Positions 1,433 through 28,159 of a stretch of DNA of 64,000 nucleotides are shown here, piece after piece. The stretch is from positions 1 to 64,000 of IMG/VR virus record IMGVR_UViG_3300035698_010295. One strand, 5' to 3'. A program made the position numbers and the translations under genes. Below the pieces are notes generated by a model. It saw nothing but the letters and a program-made list of their open reading frames with translations, was not told the origin of the DNA and made no database searches. Position 1 is the stretch's first letter, and each line of letters starts with the position of its first letter. The DNA is from a virus.

Positions 1433-3108
1433 TAAATATCTCCTTCGTGGCTAGCCTTTTGGTCCTCGCGTGCATCACGATTAGGTTCACCATCTGTATC
1501 ACTAACACCGCGACCAGTCATATTAGACTGGGCTGCTGCTATACGTGCAAGACGCTCTGCATGATCTTGTTTTGCTTTTTCTGAACTTCCAATTGGATAA
1601 CCACGAGCATCTGATGCTGAGTCTAAATCAACAAGACCAGCTTCAAGGTCTTTAAGAATGATCATAGGATCAACATCTAAAATAGAAGCCGTATTAATTT
1701 CCTCATAGATTTTATTTAATTTTTCTTGTGTTATTTTATCACCAAGAACAATAGTGGCAATGCGTTTAATAATTTCACGTTTAAATGTTATACTTGGTGC
1801 ATCATGGAGTAGTGCTTTAAGACGTTCAGCTTCTTGTTGTTTATCAGTATCAGATTTAATAGAGTAGCGTTTAGGGTATGCTATTGTTATTTCTATTTTA
1901 TTACCTTCATACAAGTTCCATATTCTAGCCAACTGGCGTTCTGTAGCTTCGAGTTCTAAGCCTATATATGAGAGACCTGCTTCAAGACCTTGTTGGTCAG
2001 CTTCTTTACTTTCAGCTGATGCCATCTTAGGTTCAACATTTGTTAAGGCAAGGTGAACTAACTCCTTAATTTCCTTCTTTAGTATTTGTTGCTTCTCCAT
2101 ACTCGCCTTAAAAGGCTCAGGAGACGGATGTATGAATCCAGGTCTCTCGGCCCCTAACGGGTACTGGCGGCCATCAGCAGCACCAGTACTCACGCGTTTC
2201 TGACCAGCTACACTATTTTCTTCTGTGTTGTCATTATAAGCGTCATTTGTTCTGGAATATTGATTAACACGATAGTCTACCTGCTCGGTGTAAAATGGGA
2301 AATTACTTCTAATACCATAGGACATATCTGCTGATGCTAAATTAGCTAAAGCGACTTGATAATCAGCAACGTCCACCATCAAAGATTGTGTTAATTCAGC
2401 TATTACGAATGGTATCATAGGAAGATTTAATGTATAAGATTCTGTTGATTTATTATTATATTGATCTATCTGATCACCTTGTTCATTATAGAATTTTACT
2501 ATTGTACCATCAGCTGTTGTTTCTAAATATCGATAACGCTCTATACCATCATTAGGTAAACCCTCAACAAAAGTATTTACATTTTCTCTGAGTAAAAGTT
2601 TCTTAAAATAAACACCATCAATATTATAACCATAATCCCAGCTTAAAATATTTTCTGCCTTAAAAATATAGTAATAAGGATGTCCGTTGTAAATCTTTGA
2701 ATTGTTTGTAATTACAGGCATATCTACATAGATACCAACTTTACCTTTAACTAAAAGTTCTGGTAGGATTTGACGACCTATGTAAATATTCATGGTGCTA
2801 CCAGCTAGGTCTACGCCTCCTTTAAGACCATGCATGACATCATTGTAAAATTCAGAACCGCCCACACGTGTGACGTCTGAGATCCGTTGAAAAATAGAAT
2901 TTTTAACTTCATTAATAGCTTCTTTAGCAAAAGCTGGTGTGTAAGAATATTTCTTACGATTTATAAAATCATCAGTAGTTTCTCTAAGAGAAAATTGTTC
3001 TACATAATCTTCTACAAATTGATGACCTGCTGTATAAGCTGCATCATATTTTAACCAGAGGTCTGATGTATATTCTGGATGTCTTATATCTATTATTTTA
3101 ACGGTCAT
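1432..3108 (-). CDS. Portal protein
   Basis: 558 aa, directly downstream of the large terminase; N-terminal 'HPEY...W', 'GKVGIYVDMP' and 'ENILSW' resemble DUF4055/SPP1-type portals. Confidence 0.8.
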   Translation of the reverse strand: MTVKIIDIRHPEYTSDLWLKYDAAYTAGHQFVEDYVEQFSLRETTDDFINRKKYSYTPAFAKEAINEVKNSIFQRISDVTRVGGSEFYNDVMHGLKGGVDLAGSTMNIYIGRQILPELLVKGKVGIYVDMPVITNNSKIYNGHPYYYIFKAENILSWDYGYNIDGVYFKKLLLRENVNTFVEGLPNDGIERYRYLETTADGTIVKFYNEQGDQIDQYNNKSTESYTLNLPMIPFVIAELTQSLMVDVADYQVALANLASADMSYGIRSNFPFYTEQVDYRVNQYSRTNDAYNDNTEENSVAGQKRVSTGAADGRQYPLGAERPGFIHPSPEPFKASMEKQQILKKEIKELVHLALTNVEPKMASAESKEADQQGLEAGLSYIGLELEATERQLARIWNLYEGNKIEITIAYPKRYSIKSDTDKQQEAERLKALLHDAPSITFKREIIKRIATIVLGDKITQEKLNKIYEEINTASILDVDPMIILKDLEAGLVDLDSASDARGYPIGSSEKAKQDHAERLARIAAAQSNMTGRGVSDTDGEPNRDAREDQKASHEGDI

Positions 3109-4748
3109 AAAGGACTCCTGATGTTTCGATTAACACTTATTCTAGCTAGTATAAGAGCTATTTCTGCATAATTTAAAGCGTGTCCAAAGTGATCATCTGC
3201 TACATTTACATAGCGAGCTATTGGATTACCATGTCTGTCTATTTCAGGTTTACGCACTAGAGCTTTAATATTGCTTCTAAATTCAGTAGGTGTGTCTAGT
3301 GGTATTGTTATTGTTTTATTTGCAAAGCGACCTAATGAAAGATCCAACCAAGAGGTTCGATCAACAGTAACTTGCTGTTCCAATTCTTGACCGTCTTTGT
3401 CTCTTGTTTTATTAATTTGTTTACCAGTCACGGCGTTGCCATAAAAACAAAGCCAAATATAACCCCAGAATCTTTGTGCGAACTCATAGGCTTTACGGCG
3501 TTCAGGGTTGGCATCTATTACTATACCTACTGGTTTATACTTGTAAACTACGAGGTCAAGTTCTTCAAAATCGTGCACCTTATTGATCTCTAGCACCTTA
3601 CAATGTGCATTCATATTGATGTCTGCTGTTTGTATATTGGGGAGAGTATATTCACTTACTACATAGTGCAGCCAGTTGCCAACATCTATACCTAAAGTAA
3701 TGATTCCTTTACTTGGTGGTTCGCTGTTCTTATAATTACCTATGCAAGCTGATATGTCAGAGTCGTTTATACGGGCACCTTTTACTATGTGTGCAAGGCC
3801 AAGCTTTGAATTAAAGAACTCTTGTTCATAAGCTGCATTTGTTTGAGCCAATAAATAACTAGTGGCTAGTTCCCATGGTTTAATTGTTGGAGAGTACATT
3901 TGATTGATATGGTAACCATCATACTCTGCTTTTTTCTTTGGGACCCAATCACCCTTTGTGAGATATTCTTTAGAGTTTGATAATGTAGCTTTACATTCTG
4001 TGCACTTATAATAAGAAGACTTTAATTTTGGATCTGTTGGATCATCACTGGTTATTTCAATTGATTCTGGAAAGATGAACCTAATTTGACGACCACACGC
4101 AGGACAAGGGAAAAAGAACTCTTGTTGGGTTGATTGTTCGAAAAATTTATTGATGCCTGTTTCATCAATTGTAGGAGTACTTATTAACCATGTTTGTTTC
4201 TCGGTCTGACCAGATTGTCTTTCAAAAGCCAGTGGAATGTTATCTTGTGTCATTTCGTCAACTTCGTCGAAGACGAGAAAACCAGCTGGTACACTTTTAA
4301 GTCCAGAGCGGGATCTAGAACCACGGATATATAAGTTAGTGTTACCGGCACGTTTGTGTCCAACGTTCTTGACATCAGAAAATAAGTTTTGGAGGTAAGG
4401 TGATAGCTCCAAGGCTGGGTCAAACCTGGATGCGGAAAAGTCACTAGCATCTGGATTTTTAGCTGGTAATACGTAAAGAGTAGAAATGCCACGAATATCT
4501 AATTTATAAAATGTACGATTAAGGGCTACCTCGGTGAATCCCATTTGAGCAGCTTTTTGACCAACACAAGTTTCTGTGTCAGAATCTGTCATTTTTTTAA
4601 GCCAAGGGTGATGGTCAAAAGTCCAGGGACCTGGAAATGGATTACCCATTATCCTACATTTTTCTGCCCAACGTGAACATTTTTCTAATGTTTTACGTTC
4701 GAGTCCAATATTTATTGTCTTAAAAAGTTGGGCTTTTAAATCATGCAT
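3105..4748 (-). CDS. terL: Terminase large subunit, lambda GpA-like ATPase
   Basis: Walker A variant QKAAQMGFTE, Walker B FDEVD, ISTPT motif, CPACG...CTEC zinc motif, C-terminal RNase H-like GIDVG and DDHFGHA. Confidence 0.9.
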   Translation of the reverse strand: MHDLKAQLFKTINIGLERKTLEKCSRWAEKCRIMGNPFPGPWTFDHHPWLKKMTDSDTETCVGQKAAQMGFTEVALNRTFYKLDIRGISTLYVLPAKNPDASDFSASRFDPALELSPYLQNLFSDVKNVGHKRAGNTNLYIRGSRSRSGLKSVPAGFLVFDEVDEMTQDNIPLAFERQSGQTEKQTWLISTPTIDETGINKFFEQSTQQEFFFPCPACGRQIRFIFPESIEITSDDPTDPKLKSSYYKCTECKATLSNSKEYLTKGDWVPKKKAEYDGYHINQMYSPTIKPWELATSYLLAQTNAAYEQEFFNSKLGLAHIVKGARINDSDISACIGNYKNSEPPSKGIITLGIDVGNWLHYVVSEYTLPNIQTADINMNAHCKVLEINKVHDFEELDLVVYKYKPVGIVIDANPERRKAYEFAQRFWGYIWLCFYGNAVTGKQINKTRDKDGQELEQQVTVDRTSWLDLSLGRFANKTITIPLDTPTEFRSNIKALVRKPEIDRHGNPIARYVNVADDHFGHALNYAEIALILARISVNRNIRSPL

Positions 4749-5295
4749 CTTTTGTTAATATTTCTAAAAGATCTTCTGATATGTTTTCAACGGCTTTTGG
4801 GTCATCCACGTGTTTGTTTATGATACCTATAATTTCGAGGCCAAGTTGGACGACCTGTGTTTTATCTAGGAACTGGCCGGTTAGTTTATCAATTCTTTGG
4901 CAACTGGAAACTAGCTTTTCAATCTTAATAGCTAGGTCACTAATGGTATGGGTCTGTGTAAGCAAGTCTAATGGTGTTTGTATTAAATTGAGTCGTTCCT
5001 CCATAAGGATTCTAAGAATCCCTATTTCATCTTTTAGATTTTTAAGATTATCATTCTCAGCAAATTCTGACATTCTCGCTTGATATTTCGCCAAACGATA
5101 GTTACTAAGACTCTTTTTTTCCAATGATTTTTGTTGGTTTTGTCCGCCACAAGCAGAACAGAAATCAACTTTATCCATAGCTTCATTAGGGCAACGGCTA
5201 CCGCCTTTAATGCCTTTACAAGGGTTGGTATGTGCTTTAGATGTCGGGTGTAACATTGTAGACCTTTCAAAAGTTATATATAGGTATATCGTCAT
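4741..5295 (-). CDS. Probable terminase small subunit (true start may be MLHPTSK, 5256)
   Basis: Immediately upstream of terL with overlap; N-terminal Cys cluster (C..RC...CSAC) followed by a helical/coiled-coil region. Confidence 0.55.
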   Translation of the reverse strand: MTIYLYITFERSTMLHPTSKAHTNPCKGIKGGSRCPNEAMDKVDFCSACGGQNQQKSLEKKSLSNYRLAKYQARMSEFAENDNLKNLKDEIGILRILMEERLNLIQTPLDLLTQTHTISDLAIKIEKLVSSCQRIDKLTGQFLDKTQVVQLGLEIIGIINKHVDDPKAVENISEDLLEILTKDA

Positions 5296-5335
5296 TTAGG
5301 TTAAATAAATCAATTGGGCCAATTTTCGAGCTACT

Positions 5336-5449
5336 AGTGCTTAAGTGCTTAAGTGCTTAAGTGCTTAAGTGCTTAAGTGCTTAAGTGCTTAAGTGCTTAA
5401 GTGCTTAAGTGCTTAGTTCCTAGTTCCTAGTTCCTAGTTCCTTAACAGG
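5336..5449. repeat. Tandem microsatellite (AGTGCTTA)x10 followed by about four TAGTTCC units
   Basis: Read directly from the sequence; degenerate units continue to ~5492. Confidence 0.95.
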
Positions 5450-5691
5450 CCTAGTGCTTAAGTGCCTAAGTGCTTAAGTTCCTTAACAGGTTGATTTGTT
5501 AAATCTTGAAAATTAAAATTTTGAAAATCAAAATACCTAAAATCAAAATTTTGAGATTCTCTTAGTCGGTCCCGCAGGGGGTATGATTTAATATTGGGGA
5601 CGGTTTGATTTAATAATTTTACCCCACCATGTCCCTATTTTATATCCGGGACACAACAACTAACCGTCCCTACTATAACCTGTTAAGGAAC
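5437..5691. repeat. GTTCCTTAACAGG sites: two direct (5437-5449, 5478-5492) and one inverted (5677-5691); candidate packaging (cos/pac) region
   Basis: Perfect 15-bp inverted match between 5478-5492 and 5677-5691, upstream of the small terminase. The packaging role is inference. Confidence 0.5.
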
Positions 5692-5814
5692 GGGATTCAC
5701 TGAATCGTAACCCACTACTATATCTAGAGTTATGTTAATATCTCTAGGATTCAATAGGGTACACACTAATTAAAAAAGAATTCCGCCTGTCACCCCTTAA
5801 CTGTAACTCGTTTG

Positions 5815-5888
5815 TTGACAGTAGTTTATAACTATTTAATATTTTAATTAAATAAATTTATGGTACAAGGCTATTACGCCGATATAAT
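5815..5888 (+). promoter_or_regulatory. Putative sigma70-like rightward promoter
   Basis: TTGACA at 5815-5820, an AT-rich tract, and TATAAT at 5883-5888 just before the structured region. The two hexamers are too far apart to be one promoter. Confidence 0.4.
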
Positions 5889-5894
5889 AAGAGA

Positions 5895-6257
5895 CAGGCC
5901 ATAAGATAGTTGGTAAGGTAGGCAACCGCGTGGCGGTTGACCTTGTGTTCGGAATTGTAAAACGAACACGACGTGAGAGCCTAGCGATAGGACAAACGGA
6001 CCGAATGTGGACAACCCAAAGCGTAGTACGTGGATTACGCCGCGAGGTCCACAAGGGTAAAGCGGATAACAACCGCCATATAACCCGTAGTATGCTGCAA
6101 GATAAAGCTAGTTACTTTATCGTATGGGCGGATACAAAAAGGTGTTGAGGTCTGGACAACAAACAGACCAACACACAACCGGACAGTATCAGCAGGCCAA
6201 CAGGCCACCATCGAAGTAAGCAGGGCATACTACATATAGCCGATAGGTTTTGCGGTT
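5895..6257 (+). ncRNA. Candidate large structured ncRNA (~360 nt)
   Basis: At least nine nested stems with A-rich linkers, e.g. CAACCGC/GCGGTTG, GTGTTCG/CGAACAC, CCTA-GCGA-TAGG, TGTGGAC/GTCCACA, GTAGTATGC/GCATACTAC, GATAAAG/CTTTATC, GTGTTG/CAACAC. No convincing ORF. Confidence 0.6.
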
Positions 6258-6276
6258 GGTTGTAATGGTGAATAGA

Positions 6277-6459
6277 ATGTTGACAACAATTGCAGAAGCT
6301 AACAGGTTTGTAGCAAAAAAAAGATTCCCGAAAACATATAAAGCGAAACCAAGAAAAAAAGATTCTTGGTTGCATTATCGCAAAGACAACAATTCTATAA
6401 CCGGGTGTGCAAAACTCATGCCACAACCCCGCGTTTTTCAGAATATCAAACACGTCTAA
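6277..6459 (+). CDS. Small basic hypothetical protein (60 aa)
   Basis: GGTGA SD-like sequence before ATG 6277; K/R-rich (KKRFPKTYKAKPRKK). Confidence 0.45.
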   Translation: MLTTIAEANRFVAKKRFPKTYKAKPRKKDSWLHYRKDNNSITGCAKLMPQPRVFQNIKHV

Positions 6460-6483
6460 CTATTAGGACAACCAACTGCAAAG

Positions 6484-6634
6484 CCTATCGTATTCACTAG
6501 CTAGTGAAACCCCTTAAGTGTCCCAGGTTAAACCCTGGGTACACCTATCGAAGTCACTAGCCTAGGGTAAACCCTTGGTAGACCAAGGGTAACCCTGGGT
6601 TTGATCGAGTGAATCTAGGCTGTATAGCCTATCG
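6484..6634. repeat. Palindrome cluster with ~60-bp periodicity
   Basis: Perfect palindrome TTCACTAGCTAGTGAA (6493-6508); three CC(C/T/A)AGG..AACCCT(G/T)GG quasi-palindromes; CCTATCG at 6484, 6544 and 6628. Confidence 0.8.
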
Positions 6635-6683
6635 GAACCGGTGACGGGTTGGGTGCTGTGGCCCACAGGAAAGGTGGGTCCAC

Positions 6684-6986
6684 ATGCGTTTCAACAGGAG
6701 TCATTTTGAGGCTCTACCTCAAAAAAGTTTAGTCAATAACCATAAACTGATATGGTTACAAACAAACATGAACCTTTGGTCATACATCAAAGGTGTCATT
6801 GATGTTAGTGAGAAAGTAGTACAATACGGATTTGTCTACAGCGTATATCATGAAAACCCCGTACCTAATTTTGCTTTCATTGCCGATGATGTAGCCTATA
6901 ACTTTGCCCTAGATGGCAAAGTAATTATTATTGGTGATGAAGAAAAGATCAGAGCAGGTACTCTTATGTTTGATAGTTTGATCTAA
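6684..6986 (+). CDS. Hypothetical protein flanked by 26-nt inverted repeats
   Basis: AGGAAAGG SD; 100-aa ORF; inverted repeats at 6641-6666 and 6994-7019. Confidence 0.7.
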   Translation: MRFNRSHFEALPQKSLVNNHKLIWLQTNMNLWSYIKGVIDVSEKVVQYGFVYSVYHENPVPNFAFIADDVAYNFALDGKVIIIGDEEKIRAGTLMFDSLI

Positions 6987-7245
6987 TAAGTTAGTGGGCC
7001 ACAACATCCGACCCGTCACTAATTTAAAATATTTTTGGTATTTTAGATATTTTAGGTATTTTAGTGCTCTGTTTCTTAACAGGTTACAAAAAAACATTCG
7101 ATCTATTGTAAAAGCCGCCAGTATGGCTGCCTTTGCAAACGCCATAACTTGCGAGGGACCGAAAATTTCCTGCTGTTTGGCACGAGATCTACTCAATCGA
7201 ATTAACCTACCAGGGTGAACCCACCACCCTCTTTCCTTCCTTTCC

Positions 7246-7308
7246 TGGGGAGGCCAAAATGCCTAAAATGGCCGTTTTGGAAAATGGCTGTTTTAGGTGG
7301 CCTCCCCA
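7246..7308 (+). other. Long G.U-containing hairpin
   Basis: TGGGGAGGCC...GCCTAAAATGGCCGTTTT-GG-AAAATGGCTGTTTTAGGT-GGCCTCCCCA. Confidence 0.7.
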
Positions 7309-7362
7309 CCTGCCTTTATGTGGGACACCCAACCCGTCGCCTCTCCAGAACCGGAGGTCCAA

Positions 7363-7602
7363 ATGGGTTATTCAAACATGATATCTGATAAGTGTGACCA
7401 TTATACGGCCTACATATTTGGTCAGATATTTAATGGTAGACTAAGTTACTTGAAGCTAGAAATAGATGGGGAAGTAATCTCAGAAGCTGGTAAATGGCAA
7501 AATGTTACCGAAAAGGTACATTGCACATCCCTAATGAATGGCCATAATTCAAAAGTGACAGCGTATGCCCAATACTATACGCTGTTGAAAGACTTAATGT
7601 AA
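7363..7602 (+). CDS. Hypothetical protein (79 aa)
   Basis: GGAGG SD precedes ATG 7363, which is in frame with the track ORF 7297..7602. Confidence 0.7.
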   Translation: MGYSNMISDKCDHYTAYIFGQIFNGRLSYLKLEIDGEVISEAGKWQNVTEKVHCTSLMNGHNSKVTAYAQYYTLLKDLM

Positions 7603-7666
7603 CTAACAGGAGAGGCGATACCCACTCAACCCGTCACCTACTTTCCTTGCTCTACAGGAGACTATC

Positions 7667-8872
7667 ATGAGTAAGGAAATCACATTAGAGGATCTATCAG
7701 TTGAAGAATTTAACCAACAGCAAGAGCTAATGGGTAAATCTCTTCACCTCATACCGAGTGAGTTTACCACAGTGGAGATTGATTCAATCAATTTCCATGC
7801 TGAGTGGCAACCAAGGTTCAAAACAGACCCTACAAGGCTATTCAACGGAATCTGCCTTGAAGGTCTGGCGACACCTCCCAAGGTGTTTCTAGATGAGTCT
7901 GGTGCATACCATGCCCTCGATGGCAGACATCGGTGGGCATCCCTCCAGAAGATCAAGACTGAGTGTCCACTGGTGTGGAAAAAGCACCAGTTCGATGCTG
8001 GGATACCTGTTCAGCTGTTCCAGAACTTGAATCCCACACAGATCTTGAATCTTCGAACCGATGAGGGTCGTGGGCAAGAACCCCTCCAAGGTAAGGCAGA
8101 GTGCTGGCGAGCACTTGAACCTCATTACTCTGTTGGTAAGAGTGATAAGCAGATTGAAACTGAGTATTGGAAGATACTCATAGATACCTGCTGCTCAGTT
8201 GCCAAGCGTAATGATGTGTTGCAAATGTTCGCCAAGGCTACTGACCCGCGAGCATTTGTGGTGGCTATCCACAATGCAACATATATTCATCAGCAACGCT
8301 TTCGGTCTCTGTTCAAAAATCCTAACATCGTTAGAGATCAATGGACAAAGGGCGAACTCGGTGTTGCTGATGAGGCTGGTGTGGCCAGTCTCAAGTTGAC
8401 CGATGCAGATTTAAGAAATCTAGCTAAAGCTCACTCAGGTGACTTAGCAGAAGATGAGGCTGCTGGTACAAAACACAACTATGGTCTGGATAAGCCAGGA
8501 CCAGGTGTGCAGGCAATGTTGTCAAAGATATTAGCTGATAAAGCTAATGGTTCTAAAGCAACGAAACCTACCAGGATGTCAACAGCGGACGTTGAAGCAC
8601 ATGCTTCTAGTGGAAGCTCAAGAGCTGAGAAAATCATCTTTGCCGCTATGAATGGTAAAGAGGCCTCACAAGCTCAATTACCCATCATACTTAAGGCCAT
8701 CGCGAAGTATGAGAAAGCAGATGAGATCGACACCATGTTAGTTCAAGGTGTCCTTAATGCTGTTCTCAAGATGGGTAAGAAAACAGAGGAATCTGTACGG
8801 ATGCAGGTTCTTAATGCAATTGTTGGGCACCAAAAAGAATCAAAAAGTGCCACTAAAATCAGAACAAAGTAA
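7667..8872 (+). CDS. ParB/Srx-like N-terminal domain protein
   Basis: AGGAG SD; 'WQPRF' and 'YHALDGRHRW' motifs of ParB-like domains; 401 aa. Confidence 0.7.
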   Translation: MSKEITLEDLSVEEFNQQQELMGKSLHLIPSEFTTVEIDSINFHAEWQPRFKTDPTRLFNGICLEGLATPPKVFLDESGAYHALDGRHRWASLQKIKTECPLVWKKHQFDAGIPVQLFQNLNPTQILNLRTDEGRGQEPLQGKAECWRALEPHYSVGKSDKQIETEYWKILIDTCCSVAKRNDVLQMFAKATDPRAFVVAIHNATYIHQQRFRSLFKNPNIVRDQWTKGELGVADEAGVASLKLTDADLRNLAKAHSGDLAEDEAAGTKHNYGLDKPGPGVQAMLSKILADKANGSKATKPTRMSTADVEAHASSGSSRAEKIIFAAMNGKEASQAQLPIILKAIAKYEKADEIDTMLVQGVLNAVLKMGKKTEESVRMQVLNAIVGHQKESKSATKIRTK

Positions 8873-8895
8873 CTTAGAGGAAAGTAGGTGACGGT

Positions 8896-8964
8896 GTGTT
8901 TTGGGAAATTGTATTTGGTGCTATAGCTGTGTGGTTCATTATTTGGTTAATCGAACGACACTAA
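8896..8964 (+). CDS. Putative 22-aa membrane micropeptide MFWEIVFGAIAVWFIIWLIERH
   Basis: AGGTGA SD then GTG start; a single hydrophobic stretch; ends right before a terminator. Confidence 0.4.
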   Translation: MFWEIVFGAIAVWFIIWLIERH

Positions 8965-8967
8965 AAT

Positions 8968-9003
8968 GCCCTGTTAAGGCTTTGCCTTAGCAGGGCTTTT
9001 TTT
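8968..9003 (+). terminator. Intrinsic terminator
   Basis: GCCCTGTTAAGGC-TTT-GCCTTAGCAGGGC followed by T7. Confidence 0.85.
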
Positions 9004-9026
9004 GATTTATAAAATCTTGATTTATC

Positions 9027-9071
9027 TCCCTGTTAAGATATGTTCTAAAGTATCTTAACAGGGATTTTTTT
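9027..9071 (+). terminator. Second tandem intrinsic terminator
   Basis: TCCCTGTTAAGATA-N10-TATCTTAACAGGGA followed by T7. Confidence 0.75.
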
Positions 9072-9114
9072 GATTCTTGGACAGGCCTACACCTCAAAGT
9101 CTCGGGCCTGTCAA

Positions 9115-9186
9115 GGTGACTGCCGGAAGTCGAATCCGAATCCATGGAATCACAATCCATTGCTTTACCTATTAAGCTACAGTCAC
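9115..9186 (-). tRNA. tRNA-His (GTG)
   Basis: Cloverleaf: acceptor GTGACTG/CAGTCAC, D arm GCTT/AAGC, anticodon arm ATGGA-TTGTGAT-TCCAT, T loop TTCGACT, C73. CCA and G-1 are not encoded. Confidence 0.85.
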
Positions 9187-9188
9187 AA

Positions 9189-9261
9189 AGCCTCGGGCAG
9201 GATTCGAACCCACGAGGCATTCTATAGCGTATCAATAATGTGCGTCTACCGCCACCGAGGC
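9189..9261 (-). ncRNA. tRNA-like RNA or pseudo-tRNA
   Basis: Intact acceptor (GCCTCGG/CCGAGGC) and T arm (GTGGG-TTCGAAT-CCTGC); shortened D arm; 4-bp stem with a 15-nt loop in place of the anticodon arm. Confidence 0.65.
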
Positions 9262-9400
9262 ACAAAGCATCTTACGCTTAACTTTTCGCCCAAGTACACC
9301 AAATCAATTCTAAGGCCATCTAAGGCCAATGGGGGTAAGTATACCAATATAACATTAAAAGGCAACACACGGGAAGCCAGACACCTTTAAAGGCACCTGA

Positions 9401-9434
9401 GCACCCTTAAGGGGCACCCTTAAGGGGCACCCTT
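9401..9434. repeat. Tandem 13-mer GCACCCTTAAGGG (about 2.5 copies)
   Basis: Read directly; contains the palindrome CCCTTAAGGG. Confidence 0.85.
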
Positions 9435-9473
9435 TAAATGTGGGGACACATCATACAATTAGTTGTAAGGTCA

Positions 9474-9716
9474 TAAGCTCTTTGTTTGCAAAGGGTTACA
9501 ACCGAGATCACATTTGTAAGGCAACTGGCCGGTCCAAAATGGTAACTCGTTAACCTGTAACGAGTTAACCCCTTAACCGGGAGGAAGCTTACGTATTTAC
9601 TATTTTTTTAACCTAAAGTAACTAGTAAAAAAAAGATAGTAAAAAGTGCTATAGGAGTTATAGTTTTTCCCGTATTGTATGGTTATTAACCTAACCCGTT
9701 GCGGGGCAACGGGTTA
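9474..9716. promoter_or_regulatory. Three 25-bp palindromic sites (10-5-10 geometry)
   Basis: 9543-9567 TAACTCGTTA-ACCTG-TAACGAGTTA; 9692-9716 TAACCCGTTG-CGGGG-CAACGGGTTA; degenerate copy at 9474-9498. Confidence 0.55.
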
Positions 9717-9902
9717 ATCCTTACTGTCCCCTACAACTTGCCCAATTTCCGTGCGGATAAGTTTTAAAATAGGCTCAAAAGACTCCGTCCTATGGAGATT
9801 ACCTCGGTAGCCACGTAACTCAAGGCCGGTACACCCAGCCACTAACTTATAACCAAGACCATTACATGCTAATTTAAGAGCTTTAATAATTTCTTTGTGC
9901 AC
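9714..9902 (-). CDS. Hypothetical protein
   Basis: 62-aa ORF overlapping the end of the nuclease gene. Confidence 0.45.
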   Translation of the reverse strand: MHKEIIKALKLACNGLGYKLVAGCTGLELRGYRGNLHRTESFEPILKLIRTEIGQVVGDSKD

Positions 9903-26254: not shown

Positions 26255-26603
26255 TATTAGCTTCTTTTAATAATTCATCTAATTCTTTAAAAGTTGGATC
26301 AGTTTGTTTAAGATGATCTATATACTTAGTATTATCTTTAATAGCACACTGTATCTTATTTGTAATATTAACATCTTTAATAGTTTGTTGTATGATTCTA
26401 TCTTGAAGCTCACCAATTATATCACGTAATGCATGAGATAACATGGTATTAACTTCTTCTTCAATATGATCTGTGTTTCTGATACAACAAGCAGATGTAC
26501 TAGTTAAATGTTTACCATCAATACTAGCATTAACTATGAGTTTGACTGTAATATCATAATTAATCTCAAAACATAATTGGTGTTCTATTTCTATATTAAT
26601 CAC
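26208..26603 (-). CDS. Hypothetical protein (3' end overlaps tRNA-Leu)
   Basis: GTGA-coupled to the Ro60 stop. Confidence 0.55.
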   Translation of the reverse strand: MINIEIEHQLCFEINYDITVKLIVNASIDGKHLTSTSACCIRNTDHIEEEVNTMLSHALRDIIGELQDRIIQQTIKDVNITNKIQCAIKDNTKYIDHLKQTDPTFKELDELLKEANSPNGGIGRHKGFKIP

Positions 26604-28159
26604 TTTGAAAACTCCGATATTACATTGGGGGTGGCAGTATCAAAACCCACAACATCTAACATACCAGGATCGCTTGGATCAGCTATTGAAAACTCAGTGG
26701 GTTCCATAGACACTACAATTAATTTAGCATAGATACCTGTTTTCTTGCGATACTTTAATAAAGCTTGTACTGGGTGAATACCACCACACCAAGTTTCATT
26801 ATCGGTATAGATAACAAACGTGTCTACACTTATATTGTGTTCTAAAGCATAGATCATTGGTAATGAGCAGTCTGTCCTACCAAAAGGTAAACCTTTTACC
26901 GTTTTTACAACATCATCAAGTCTTTGTCTAGGAGATATATTTAATGTTGTTAATCTACTTGTAAAAGCTGTAATCACATAATTAGGCTCCACACTAGCAG
27001 TGATTAGAGCCATAGCTGCTGTGCCAATCCGTGGTGAAATACCAGTCATACCTGCAAGATCAGTGTGACTCATTGAACTTGATACATCTAAGGCTAACAT
27101 TGTACGTTTACACGTTGGTTTAACAGTGTCAAAAGAAAGATAGAAAGCTTGATCGAGTGCATCAATAATACTGGTGTTTGGACTCCAAGATAATGAGCCT
27201 TTAAAACCATGTCCCTTAGTGTATGTGTTTAGTGCCACAAGTATAGAGAGTGGATGTACTCTAGCCTTTTTGAGTTGATCTTTGTCTGTTAATCTTTGAA
27301 CTATTAGATTAGCAGACATTGGACCTATAGTACCGACAGATGTCATTTTGCCAAGGTTGCGAATCATAGCAGTCAGTGGCATTTTTTCTAGCAGAGCATC
27401 CCAGATATTTTTGTTGTTTAGCATCTCAGTAGGGATAGCTTCACGAGGTAAATTGTATGCCCTGATCATGTTATATAGGATTTCTGACTCACAAATTTGT
27501 GCATCTTCATACGCTCGTACTATGGCAGGTGCAGTTGGTGTAAGTTTGCCTTGTGTTATCCAGTGATACAAAGATTGATATGTTGAATTTGGTGGTATGG
27601 GATGACTCTTACGTAGAGCATCTCTATGTGACCAGCCATCTCTTTGTCGATATTTTATACATTGGTAAGCTAAAGCATCTACATCCTTGTCATTATACCA
27701 ATTAGCTACAGCAGTACGTAATAAGCGACCCCACCCGCGGAATTGTTGAACAAATTCCAAGAAATGAAATAGATGTGTACCTATTCTGGCAACCTTGGGC
27801 AACTGAGCCAAGGCGTAGTTCTTTTCATCACCAATACTAGCTGCCATAGCCAAAGCAAAAAGGCAAGGGTCATTTTTAGGTGCCCTGCCTTCAGTACTAA
27901 TCTCAGTGATTTTGTCAATCGTTCTTTTAGCATCCAAATCTAAGCAACGTAAAACACACTTAGCATTATCGCTGGTGAGCTTATGTTCTTTAACATAGTA
28001 AGTGCCACCCTCTGAGCCTAGGATTAAGAATCTCTCAAGACGGTACCAATCACTAATTGACCAGACAAAGCCTCCGGCATTGTTGCCAACCTGGTTAGAA
28101 CCAGGGATTGCCTCCGATTGTGGTGTTACTAGTGTGCTAAAATTCTGGTAAGTCTTCAT
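26600..28159 (-). CDS. rsr: Ro60 / TROVE-vWA RNA-binding protein (Rsr-like)
   Basis: NNAGGFV, RFLILGSEGGTYY, GWGR, KYRQRDGWSHRD, MPLTAMIRNLGKM, RVHP, MIDAS DVSSSM, TDCSLPM, TDNETW, DVVGFD; AGGAG SD. Confidence 0.96.
   Translation of the reverse strand: MKTYQNFSTLVTPQSEAIPGSNQVGNNAGGFVWSISDWYRLERFLILGSEGGTYYVKEHKLTSDNAKCVLRCLDLDAKRTIDKITEISTEGRAPKNDPCLFALAMAASIGDEKNYALAQLPKVARIGTHLFHFLEFVQQFRGWGRLLRTAVANWYNDKDVDALAYQCIKYRQRDGWSHRDALRKSHPIPPNSTYQSLYHWITQGKLTPTAPAIVRAYEDAQICESEILYNMIRAYNLPREAIPTEMLNNKNIWDALLEKMPLTAMIRNLGKMTSVGTIGPMSANLIVQRLTDKDQLKKARVHPLSILVALNTYTKGHGFKGSLSWSPNTSIIDALDQAFYLSFDTVKPTCKRTMLALDVSSSMSHTDLAGMTGISPRIGTAAMALITASVEPNYVITAFTSRLTTLNISPRQRLDDVVKTVKGLPFGRTDCSLPMIYALEHNISVDTFVIYTDNETWCGGIHPVQALLKYRKKTGIYAKLIVVSMEPTEFSIADPSDPGMLDVVGFDTATPNVISEFSK

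What the first reader, a model, noticed from the sequence alone, without database searches (positions are those of the whole stretch)
5895..6257. Candidate novel ~360-nt multi-domain structured RNA next to the packaging region
Seen: immediately after TATAAT (5883-5888), almost the whole segment partitions into nested helices with A-rich joiners: AAGGT..CAACCGC-GTG-GCGGTTG-ACCTT; GTGTTCG/CGAACAC; CCTA-GCGA-TAGG (GNRA loop); TGTGGAC/GTCCACA enclosing GCGTAGT/ATTACGC; GGGT/ACCC enclosing GCGG/CCGC; and a long-range GTAGTATGC(6087)/GCATACTAC(6224) enclosing GATAAAG/CTTTATC, GATAC/GTATC, GTGTTG/CAACAC, GTCTG/CAGAC and GGCC/GGCC. A G.U-rich 5'/3' closing stem is also possible. The segment is visibly more GC-rich than its surroundings, lacks a credible ORF and is followed by a small very basic ORF (6277-6459). 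I cannot assign it to a known class. Inference: a large phage ncRNA, ribozyme or RNP scaffold, possibly an early transcript, with the basic peptide as a partner.
Basis: partly seen in the sequence, partly recalled or inferred. Interest (0 to 1): 0.78.

Follow-up and report, generated by a model that had tools for sequence, protein, structure and literature searches.

The report
Structured leader of a phage operon
The hairpin-rich 360-base stretch is real, but it looks like the untranslated front end of a short phage operon whose genes are each enclosed by long RNA stems, not a conserved stand-alone RNA gene.

Summary
5895-6257 is GC-rich and has no supported ORF. It folds far better than shuffles (z -5.5), and most of the listed helices have pairing probability of 0.9 or more. 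No Rfam family matches, even at E<=10.

The segment is not an isolated structured spot: every 360-nt window of the rightward island 5161-9840 has z between -2.3 and -10, against about 0 elsewhere.

The segment starts just after a TATAAT box that relatives also carry. It ends where a 23-bp long-range stem begins, and that stem encloses the small basic ORF. Eight related metagenomic phages share the layout: promoter, 170-390-nt ORF-less leader, then cistrons bracketed by 14-32-bp stems. Arm sequences differ in every phage, and mismatches favour G.U on the sense strand (20 versus 7).

The leaders share no sequence, length or detectable fold, so there is no covariation evidence for this RNA. The G.U-rich closing stem loses to the bracket stem in context. 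The basic ORF is a real conserved gene.

Best reading (0.5): a lineage-specific structured 5' leader of an mRNA processed in the RNase III style. A released, trans-acting RNA remains possible (about 0.15). No transcript data exist.

The parts
5815..5843 (+). Promoter-like site P1 (TTGACA, 16-17 nt spacer, TAATAT/AATATT)
   Evidence: Best sigma-70-type match of the region, 10 of 12 positions. Consensus match only; not shown to be active.
5883..5888 (+). TATAAT -10 box (P2); predicted start near 5895
   Evidence: Read. A TATAAT or TAGAAT box stands at the head of the equivalent leader in L018, L002, L053, L008, L013, L007 and L003. The -35 here is weak (my reading).
5895..6240 (+). ORF-less structured 5' leader (the finding): five local hairpins plus a 150-nt branched domain, joined by A-rich linkers
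   Evidence: z -5.5. 55% of the unpaired bases are A on the + strand. No Rfam match at E<=10. No homolog found.
5923..5939 (+). Hairpin H1, CAACCGC-GTG-GCGGTTG
   Evidence: Pair probability 0.98-0.99. Also flagged as weakly terminator-like with tail ACCTTGTGTT.
5945..5969 (+). Hairpin H2, GTGTTCG / CGAACAC with an 11-nt loop
   Evidence: Pair probability 1.0.
5980..5991 (+). Hairpin H3, CCTA-GCGA-TAGG (GNRA-type loop)
   Evidence: Pair probability 0.95-0.99.
6006..6053 (+). Hairpin H4: outer TGTGGAC/GTCCACA, inner GCGTAGT/ATTACGC (one G.U)
   Evidence: Pair probability 0.8-1.0.
6055..6086 (+). Hairpin H5: GGGT/ACCC around GCGG/CCGC
   Evidence: Pair probability 0.77-1.0.
6087..6233 (+). Domain 6: 9-bp closing helix GTAGTATGC/GCATACTAC around a branched interior
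   Evidence: z -5.8 on its own. Closing-helix probability 0.95-1.0. A covariance model of it finds nothing in 33 related loci.
6241..6263 (+). 5' arm of bracket stem 1
   Evidence: 23 nt with 21 Watson-Crick pairs and 2 G.U to 6468-6490. Probability about 1.0.
6277..6459 (+). Small basic protein gene, first cistron (60 aa, pI 10.7)
   Evidence: Homologs in the same position in L002 and L053 share the C-terminal VFxNI motif. 5 of the 7 conserved codons differ synonymously between the window and L002.
6468..6490 (+). 3' arm of bracket stem 1
6491..6640 (+). Second ORF-less structured spacer, with direct repeats
   Evidence: Repeats D2 and D15. Folds into nested hairpins. Window 6361-6720 has z -4.9.
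6641..7019 (+). Bracket stem 2 (6641-6666 / 6994-7019) around ORF 6684-6986
   Evidence: 26 nt: 23 Watson-Crick pairs, 2 G.U, 1 A.C.
7631..8894 (+). Bracket stem (7631-7647 / 8878-8894, 17 of 17) around the 401-aa ParB_N-like gene 7667-8872
   Evidence: Its homologs in L002, L018, L003 and L004 are bracketed by unrelated arm sequences.

Best explanation
5895-6240 is the untranslated 5' leader of a short rightward operon. That operon comprises the small basic protein, two small ORFs and a ParB_N-like protein. It lies between the packaging genes and the replication genes of a salt-lake phage.

Transcription would start a few bases after TATAAT (5883-5888). The nascent RNA folds into five stable local hairpins and a 150-nt branched domain.

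The leader ends exactly where the first of several long-range duplexes begins. These duplexes are 17-26 bp in this phage and 14-32 bp in relatives, and each loops out one cistron. Near-perfect duplexes of this length are the expected substrates of host RNase III.

Cleavage there would cut the operon RNA into single-cistron units and release the leader as a separate RNA of about 350 nt. The compact fold of the leader most likely protects a long untranslated 5' stretch from Rho and from single-strand-specific RNases, and so sets downstream expression.

Shown: the structure excess, the promoter motif, the conserved layout, the replacement of arm sequences between phages, and the sense-strand G.U bias of the bracket stems. 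Inferred: transcription, the start site, RNase III cleavage and the protective role.
For: - **Position.** The segment starts just after the -10 box and ends at the 5' arm of bracket 1. No convincing terminator separates it from the first cistron.
- **Structure.** z is -5.5. Unpaired bases are 55% A on the + strand, which is the sense strand of the island.
- **Island-wide excess.** The whole island 5161-9840 is over-structured, while the rest of the genome is not.
- **Long-range repeats.** Long-range inverted repeats with score 17 or more number 3 observed against 0.07 per shuffled genome. All three lie in the island and each brackets one ORF.
- **Conserved layout.** The same layout (-10 box, ORF-less leader, bracketed cistrons) occurs in L002, L018, L053, L008, L013, L007, L003 and L004, always with different arm sequences.
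- **Mismatch bias.** In 26 bracket stems from 9 phages there are 564 Watson-Crick pairs, 20 G.U in the sense orientation, 7 A.C and 11 other. By my calculation the one-sided binomial P for 20 versus 7 is about 0.01. It is about 0.02 if the two extra pairings of the arm at 6640 are dropped.
- **Other leaders.** They also fold better than shuffles: L008 -5.9, L053 -2.6, L002 -2.4, L018 -2.2.
- **Precedent.** RNase III of B. subtilis cleaves long-range intramolecular mRNA duplexes that span hundreds of nucleotides (PMC11780869).
Against: - There is no transcript evidence of any kind, so the promoter, start site and processing are all inferred.
- The -35 element of the TATAAT promoter is weak in this phage.
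- The leader is about twice as long and much more GC-rich than those of L002, L018 and L053. A protective role alone does not explain this.
- Its helices are almost all Watson-Crick: 3 G.U in 99 pairs in 5915-6236. The minus strand folds equally well. The leader itself therefore carries no strand-specific pairing signal; only its A-rich linkers point to the + strand.
- The phage encodes no RNase III of its own in the 83% of the genome held, and the host is unknown.
Confidence: 0.5

Rival explanations
1. A stand-alone, trans-acting structured RNA. It could be a scaffold or partner of the small basic protein, a decoy or sponge, or a ribozyme. It would be made either as its own transcript or released from the operon RNA by cleavage at bracket 1.
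For: It is unusually long, GC-rich and helix-dense compared with the leaders of sister phages. Domain 6 alone has z -5.8. It has A-rich linkers and a GNRA loop. A conserved, very basic 60-aa protein is encoded directly downstream. The phage carries other ncRNA candidates, according to earlier unchecked notes on Ro60 and Y-like RNAs.
Against: No homolog and no covariation were found. There is no terminator of its own. The closing stem is displaced in context. Phages that keep the basic protein (L002, L053) have unrelated, shorter leaders, so the protein does not need this RNA fold. No Rfam ribozyme or large-RNA model matches, even at E<=10.
Confidence: 0.15
2. A DNA-level element. The hairpins would be palindromes used as double- or single-stranded DNA, for example as protein binding sites, an origin, or a packaging or injection signal next to the terminase genes.
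For: Both strands fold equally well and there are almost no G.U pairs in the local hairpins. The region adjoins tandem repeats, phased A-tracts and repeated GTTCCTTAACAGG motifs at 5300-5700. In relatives, part of the leader region consists of repeated palindromes that look like operators: L008 TGTTAC-N6-GTAACA three times and L053 CTGCCA-N3-TGGCAG three times.
Against: Each hairpin here has a different sequence, so there is no repeated operator-type motif. The segment lies downstream, not upstream, of the promoter boxes. Purine and A loading matches a transcribed sense strand. The neighbouring long-range stems show a sense-strand G.U bias that DNA pairing would not produce.
Confidence: 0.12
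3. No specific function. The leader would be spacer sequence whose hairpins arose by local palindromic duplication, or as a side effect of the general pressure for structure across this operon.
For: Sister phages show no conservation of sequence, length or fold. The helices are near-perfect Watson-Crick, which fits young hairpins. The whole island, coding parts included, shows the same excess of structure.
Against: A run of stable helices with z -5.5 and A-rich linkers is unlikely to persist without selection. Every relative examined keeps an ORF-less leader of at least 170 nt with a negative z at this place.
Confidence: 0.13
4. A small protein gene (the 72-aa GTG ORF 5930-6148) rather than RNA.
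For: The ORF exists, encodes a basic product, and has an AAGGTAGG stretch 7 nt upstream of its GTG.
Against: The GTG is the triloop of hairpin H1. No homolog was found by tblastx in 50 related loci. There is no similarity to the ORF in the L002 leader. L018 has no ORF of 35 aa or more in its leader.
Confidence: 0.05

Closest known systems
Early-operon leader and RNase III sites of phage T7, and the lambda N leader (nutL plus an RNase III hairpin ahead of the small basic N protein). Named from established knowledge, not tested here.
   Same: A host-type promoter is followed by a non-coding, hairpin-rich leader of several hundred nucleotides. Cistrons are then separated by RNase III-type duplexes. 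As in lambda, the first cistron is a small, very basic protein.
   Different: Here the duplexes are long-range stems that enclose whole cistrons, not local hairpins between genes. No boxA-like motif lies in the leader. The basic protein is Lys-rich and has no detectable similarity to N. Cleavage is not shown.
Processing stems of bacterial rRNA operons, and the long-range RNase III targets in B. subtilis mRNAs (PMC11780869)
   Same: The 5' and 3' flanks of a functional unit pair over hundreds to more than a thousand nucleotides. They form near-perfect duplexes of about 17-30 bp.
   Different: The enclosed units are protein-coding cistrons of a phage operon, arranged one after another. The finding itself, the leader, lies outside the brackets.
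phi29 pRNA (packaging RNA)
   Same: A structured phage RNA read from a promoter near the packaging end of the genome.
   Different: No covariance-model match at E<=10. This phage has a classical large terminase distantly related to those of SPO1-type phages, not the phi29-type packaging system. The segment is twice the size of pRNA.
Large ornate RNAs of phages and prophages (ROOL, GOLLD)
   Same: Large, multi-helix, ORF-less, phage-borne.
   Different: No Rfam match. It has no family of homologs and no covariation, and it is much smaller than GOLLD or ROOL.

Membership tests
Any Rfam 15 family (including ROOL, GOLLD, group I/II introns, RNase P, tmRNA, 6S, pRNA, riboswitches) | Covariance-model score at or above the family's gathering threshold | tested here: not met
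   cmscan of the whole window finds only 3 tRNA-model matches elsewhere. A permissive scan of 5300-7700 at E<=10 finds nothing inside 5895-6257. There are no hits in 8 related loci either.
Conserved structured ncRNA family (generic criterion) | Homologs in other genomes with compensatory base changes that support the fold | tested here: not met
   nhmmer against 50 related loci gives no hit, and tblastx gives none. Local alignment to the syntenic L002 leader is no better than shuffles. Covariance model R1 of 6084-6236 matches only itself. Four salt-lake runs hold the identical sequence with no variants.
RNase III-type processing architecture (rRNA-operon or T7 type) | Near-perfect duplex of about two helical turns flanking the unit to be released | tested here: met
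   Met for the cistrons: 23, 26 and 17 bp. The leader's own hairpins are only 4-10 bp, and its closing stem is displaced.
RNase III-type processing architecture (rRNA-operon or T7 type) | Pairing kept while the sequence changes between relatives | tested here: met
   Bracket stems sit at equivalent places in 9 phages with unrelated arms. The sense-strand G.U to A.C ratio is 20:7.
RNase III-type processing architecture (rRNA-operon or T7 type) | Cleavage by RNase III | not testable with these tools
   No RNA data are available. The phage has no RNase III gene of its own in the part held, and the host is unknown.
Lambda nut / N-type antitermination leader | boxA consensus plus a boxB hairpin downstream of the promoter, with an arginine-rich N protein | tested here: not met
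   No GCTCTTTA-like boxA (1 mismatch allowed) lies between 5850 and 6280. The basic first cistron is Lys-rich and has no family match. The consensus used is the E. coli one and the host here is unknown.
phi29-type pRNA | pRNA fold together with a phi29-type packaging system | tested here: not met
   No model match. The packaging enzyme is a classical large terminase, 547 aa, 25-26% identical to those of SPO1-like phages.
Retron msr-msd or DGR template RNA | Adjacent reverse transcriptase gene | tested here: not met
   No RVT_1 match anywhere in the 77.7-kb record.

The most novel reading that the evidence does not exclude
The leader is cut off at bracket stem 1 and persists as a stable, lineage-specific RNA of about 350 nt with a function of its own, for example as the RNA partner of the conserved small basic protein or as a decoy. 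It would be part of an undescribed way of organising phage mRNA, in which every cistron is excised from the operon transcript by long-range duplexes, much as 16S and 23S rRNA are.
Probability: 0.15. Interest if true: 0.7.

Novelty: new variant of a known kind. Interest (0 to 1): 0.42.

Why it matters
As a candidate new RNA class the segment is weak: it is a single sequence with no homologs and no covariation. Its context is more interesting. A clade of uncultured phages from salt lakes and sediments keeps an operon beside the packaging genes whose RNA is over-structured throughout. Each cistron in that operon is enclosed by a long-range stem of 14-32 bp. The stem sequences have been replaced completely between phages, yet pairing is kept. 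If these stems are RNase III sites, this is an rRNA-operon-like processing scheme applied to phage mRNAs. It could be tested directly with in vitro transcripts. It would also explain why a long, compact leader sits at the 5' end.

Tried and rejected
- **Rfam.** Scans at gathering and at E<=10 found nothing in the segment, and nothing in relatives.
- **Phage record search.** blastn of 5800-6700 against 50,697 phage records gave no match.
- **Related loci.** TerL in viral contigs gave 14 loci and in metagenomes 35 loci. None holds a sequence homolog of 5300-7700.
- **ParB-like protein and the small ORF.** Single-protein and alignment searches found only L002's contig and L053 in viral contigs, and nothing in genome contigs.
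- **Small ORF in 5.8 billion proteins.** It matched only itself.
- **Sequencing runs.** No RNA holder is listed. Contigs of four salt-lake runs are identical, low-depth fragments with no variants and no joints, so they give no population covariation.
- **Regression scan.** A regression of MFE on base composition ranked the segment as ordinary. I reject that result. The fit extrapolates at GC 0.48 and is pulled by the island's own windows. Direct shuffles give z -3.7 to -5.5.
- **Permissive inverted-repeat count.** A count at 17 nt or more and 85% identity or more is not above chance: 3 observed against about 5 in shuffles. Only the stricter score of 17 or more is above chance.
- **Motif ideas.** GGA/CsrA-type, Hfq or Crc A-rich motifs and a tetraloop receptor were checked by eye. 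Counts were near expectation or the motifs were incomplete, so I dropped them.
- **Island protein families.** Pfam, PHROGs and the ESM Atlas gave no family for the island proteins. The 401-aa protein had a best PDB sequence hit of E 0.08 to chain 1vk1_A, deposited as a conserved hypothetical protein. Some of its relatives give sub-threshold ParB_N matches.
- **72-aa ORF in the leader.** It shows no similarity to the ORF in the L002 leader.

Full report
**Where the window comes from**

The window is the first 64 kb of a 77.7-kb IMG/VR virus record, estimated 83% complete. Near-identical DNA occurs in several salt-lake metagenomes. Portal, large terminase (3105-4748) and a putative small terminase (4741-5295) are read leftward, and so are the genes from 9115 onward (ligase, helicase and others). 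Between them lies a 3.6-kb unit read rightward. The finding sits at the start of that unit.

**The observation**

- The segment is GC-rich: 0.48-0.51 against 0.32-0.39 in the flanks. It has a strong A excess on the + strand.
- 5895-6257 folds at -124 kcal/mol against -94.9 +/- 5.3 for dinucleotide shuffles (z -5.48). The complement gives z -5.11.
- The 3' domain 6084-6236 has z -5.8 and the 5' half has z -3.4.
- In a partition-function fold of 5895-6495, 11 of the 14 helices have probabilities of about 0.8-1.0. AAGGT/ACCTT, GATAAAG/CTTTATC and GTGTTG/CAACAC are weak or replaced by alternatives.
- 55% of the unpaired bases are A.
- There is no Rfam match, even at E<=10.

**The segment is not a lone structured element**

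I computed shuffle z-scores for 360-nt windows. Every window from 5161 to 9840 lies between -2.3 and -10, including those inside the 401-aa coding region (-4.0 to -4.8). Twenty-two random windows elsewhere centre on 0, with one exception at -3.8. The whole rightward unit is over-structured, and 5881-6240 (-3.7) is an average member of it.

Its 3' half (6241-6263) is the 5' arm of a 23-bp duplex with 6468-6490. That duplex forms with probability about 1.0 and loops out the small basic ORF 6277-6459.

Two more such brackets follow:

- 6641-6666 / 6994-7019, around ORF 6684-6986.
- 7631-7647 / 8878-8894, around the 401-aa gene.

With a strict score (matches minus twice the mismatches, at least 17), the 64 kb holds three long-range inverted repeats, all in this unit. 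Shuffled genomes give 0.07 each. A looser criterion is not above chance.

**Relatives**

TerL searches gave 49 related loci at 39-81% protein identity. A search with an alignment of the ParB-like protein added L053. None contains a sequence homolog of 5300-7700 by nhmmer or tblastx. A covariance model of domain 6 finds only itself.

The layout, however, is conserved. L002, L018, L053, L008, L013, L007, L003 and L004 all show the following on the strand opposite to terL:

- a TATAAT or TAGAAT box;
- an ORF-less leader of roughly 170-390 nt;
- cistrons enclosed by 14-32-bp long-range stems whose sequences differ in every phage.

The 401-aa protein has homologs in L002 (46% identity), L018, L003 and L004. 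Each is bracketed by an unrelated stem.

Over 26 stems in 9 phages there are 564 Watson-Crick pairs, 20 G.U in the sense orientation, 7 A.C and 11 other mismatches. By my binomial calculation, 20 versus 7 gives P of about 0.01. It is about 0.02 without the two extra pairings of the 6640 arm. This points to pairing in the sense RNA rather than in DNA.

**The small basic ORF is a real gene**

L002 and L053 carry a 60-aa and a 66-aa basic protein (pI 11.1 and 11.2) as their first bracketed cistron. All three share a C-terminal VFxNI motif. Between the window and L002, 5 of the 7 conserved C-terminal codons differ only synonymously. The protein has no family match.

**The leaders**

The leaders of L002, L018, L053 and L008 fold better than shuffles (z -2.4, -2.2, -2.6, -5.9). 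They share nothing recognisable with the window's leader. Local alignment to L002 scores 25, against 20.2 +/- 2.5 for shuffles.

In L008 and L053, part of that region consists of repeated palindromes that look like operators. In the window, each hairpin has its own sequence. The window's leader is the longest of those with a closely related operon, and much the most GC-rich.

**Interpretation**

The most economical reading is that 5895-6240 is the 5' untranslated leader of this operon. It begins at the predicted start site after TATAAT. A second, better promoter match lies at 5815-5843. The leader runs without a convincing terminator into the first bracket.

The bracket duplexes have the length and quality expected of RNase III substrates. 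Long-range intramolecular duplexes are documented RNase III targets in B. subtilis mRNAs (PMC11780869). The same principle operates in rRNA operons and, with local hairpins, in T7 early mRNA (established knowledge).

Cleavage would release single-cistron RNAs and a leader RNA of about 350 nt. I infer that the leader's dense folding shields a long untranslated 5' region from Rho and from single-strand-specific nucleases. None of the RNA-level steps is shown: no RNA data were available.

**Rivals**

- **Released, trans-acting RNA or RNP with the basic protein.** Not excluded, and it is the most interesting possibility. However, L002 and L053 keep the protein without keeping the RNA.
- **DNA-level role.** Favoured by the equal folding of both strands and the near absence of G.U pairs in the local hairpins (3 of 99). 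Disfavoured by the position downstream of the promoter, the sense-strand A loading, and the G.U bias of the neighbouring stems.
- **Functionless spacer.** Fits the lack of conservation but not the strength of the fold.
- **The 72-aa GTG ORF (5930-6148).** It has no support.
- **Retron or DGR, and a phage-encoded RNase III.** Both excluded for the part of the genome held. The leader has no boxA-like motif.

**Verdict**

The structure is real and belongs to no described RNA family. The evidence does not support a discrete new RNA class. It supports a lineage-specific structured leader at the head of an unusual operon whose cistrons are each bracketed by conserved pairing, and that operon is the more notable feature. 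One tool (look-up of encoding contigs) was closed, which prevented placing the roughly 220 relatives of the ParB_N-like protein on DNA.

Noticed in passing
window 5161-9840: Every 360-nt window of the rightward unit, coding parts included, folds 2.3 to 10 sd better than dinucleotide shuffles. 22 random windows elsewhere centre on 0. L002's equivalent region shows the same tendency more weakly.
   Followed up: partly
window 6241-8894; L002 997-3375; L018 947-3361; L053 3734-6218; L013 299-2701; L007 559-2008; L008 1519-3163; L003 2553-4055; L004 1609-2854: Each cistron of the operon beside the packaging genes is enclosed by a 14-32-bp long-range stem. Arm sequences are unrelated between phages, and G.U outnumbers A.C 20 to 7 in the sense orientation. 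In L018 and L013 the brackets abut one another.
   Followed up: yes
window 6640-6655 with 6994-7019, 7326-7341, 7623-7638; L002 3356-3373 with 3093-3118, 2629-2644, 2320-2337; L053 3734-3757 with 3984-4007, 4186-4204, 3147-3166: In three phages one 5' arm is complementary to several partner sites, so the pairings are mutually exclusive. In the window and L002 all partners lie downstream; in L053 two lie downstream and one upstream. This could mean alternative or nested loops in RNA, or a repeated protein-binding site in DNA.
   Followed up: partly
window 6491-6640: A second ORF-less, GC-rich structured spacer lies between brackets 1 and 2. It is built from two pairs of direct repeats: CCTATCG..CACTAGC, and CCCAGGTTAAACCCTGGG-like hairpins.
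   Followed up: no
window 6277-6459; L002 3128-3307 (-); L053 3778-3978: A family of 60-66-aa proteins with pI about 11 and a C-terminal VFxNI motif. It is always the first bracketed cistron and is absent from Pfam, PHROGs and the Atlas.
   Followed up: partly
window 7667-8872: The 401-aa protein belongs to a family with 223 representatives at E<=0.001 among 1.8 billion proteins. Some members give sub-threshold ParB_N matches.
   Followed up: partly
window 5300-5700; L053 3138-3400; L013 about 2950-3650 (-); L008 4139-4400 (-): Between terS and the rightward promoter, each phage has its own tandem repeats: (AGTGCTTA)x10 here, (TTCCTGT)x9 in L053, and a GGCC-rich repeat of roughly 19-36 nt, many copies, in L013. 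Each also has repeated palindromes that look like operators.
   Followed up: no
window 5923-5949: Hairpin H1 with the tail ACCTTGTGTT is flagged as weakly terminator-like. If it is active, it would make a short RNA of about 50 nt from the TATAAT promoter.
   Followed up: no
window 26716-27075: This is the only window outside the island with a clearly negative folding z (-3.8, + strand). It lies inside the 519-aa ORF 26600-28159, which an earlier unchecked note calls Ro60.
   Followed up: no
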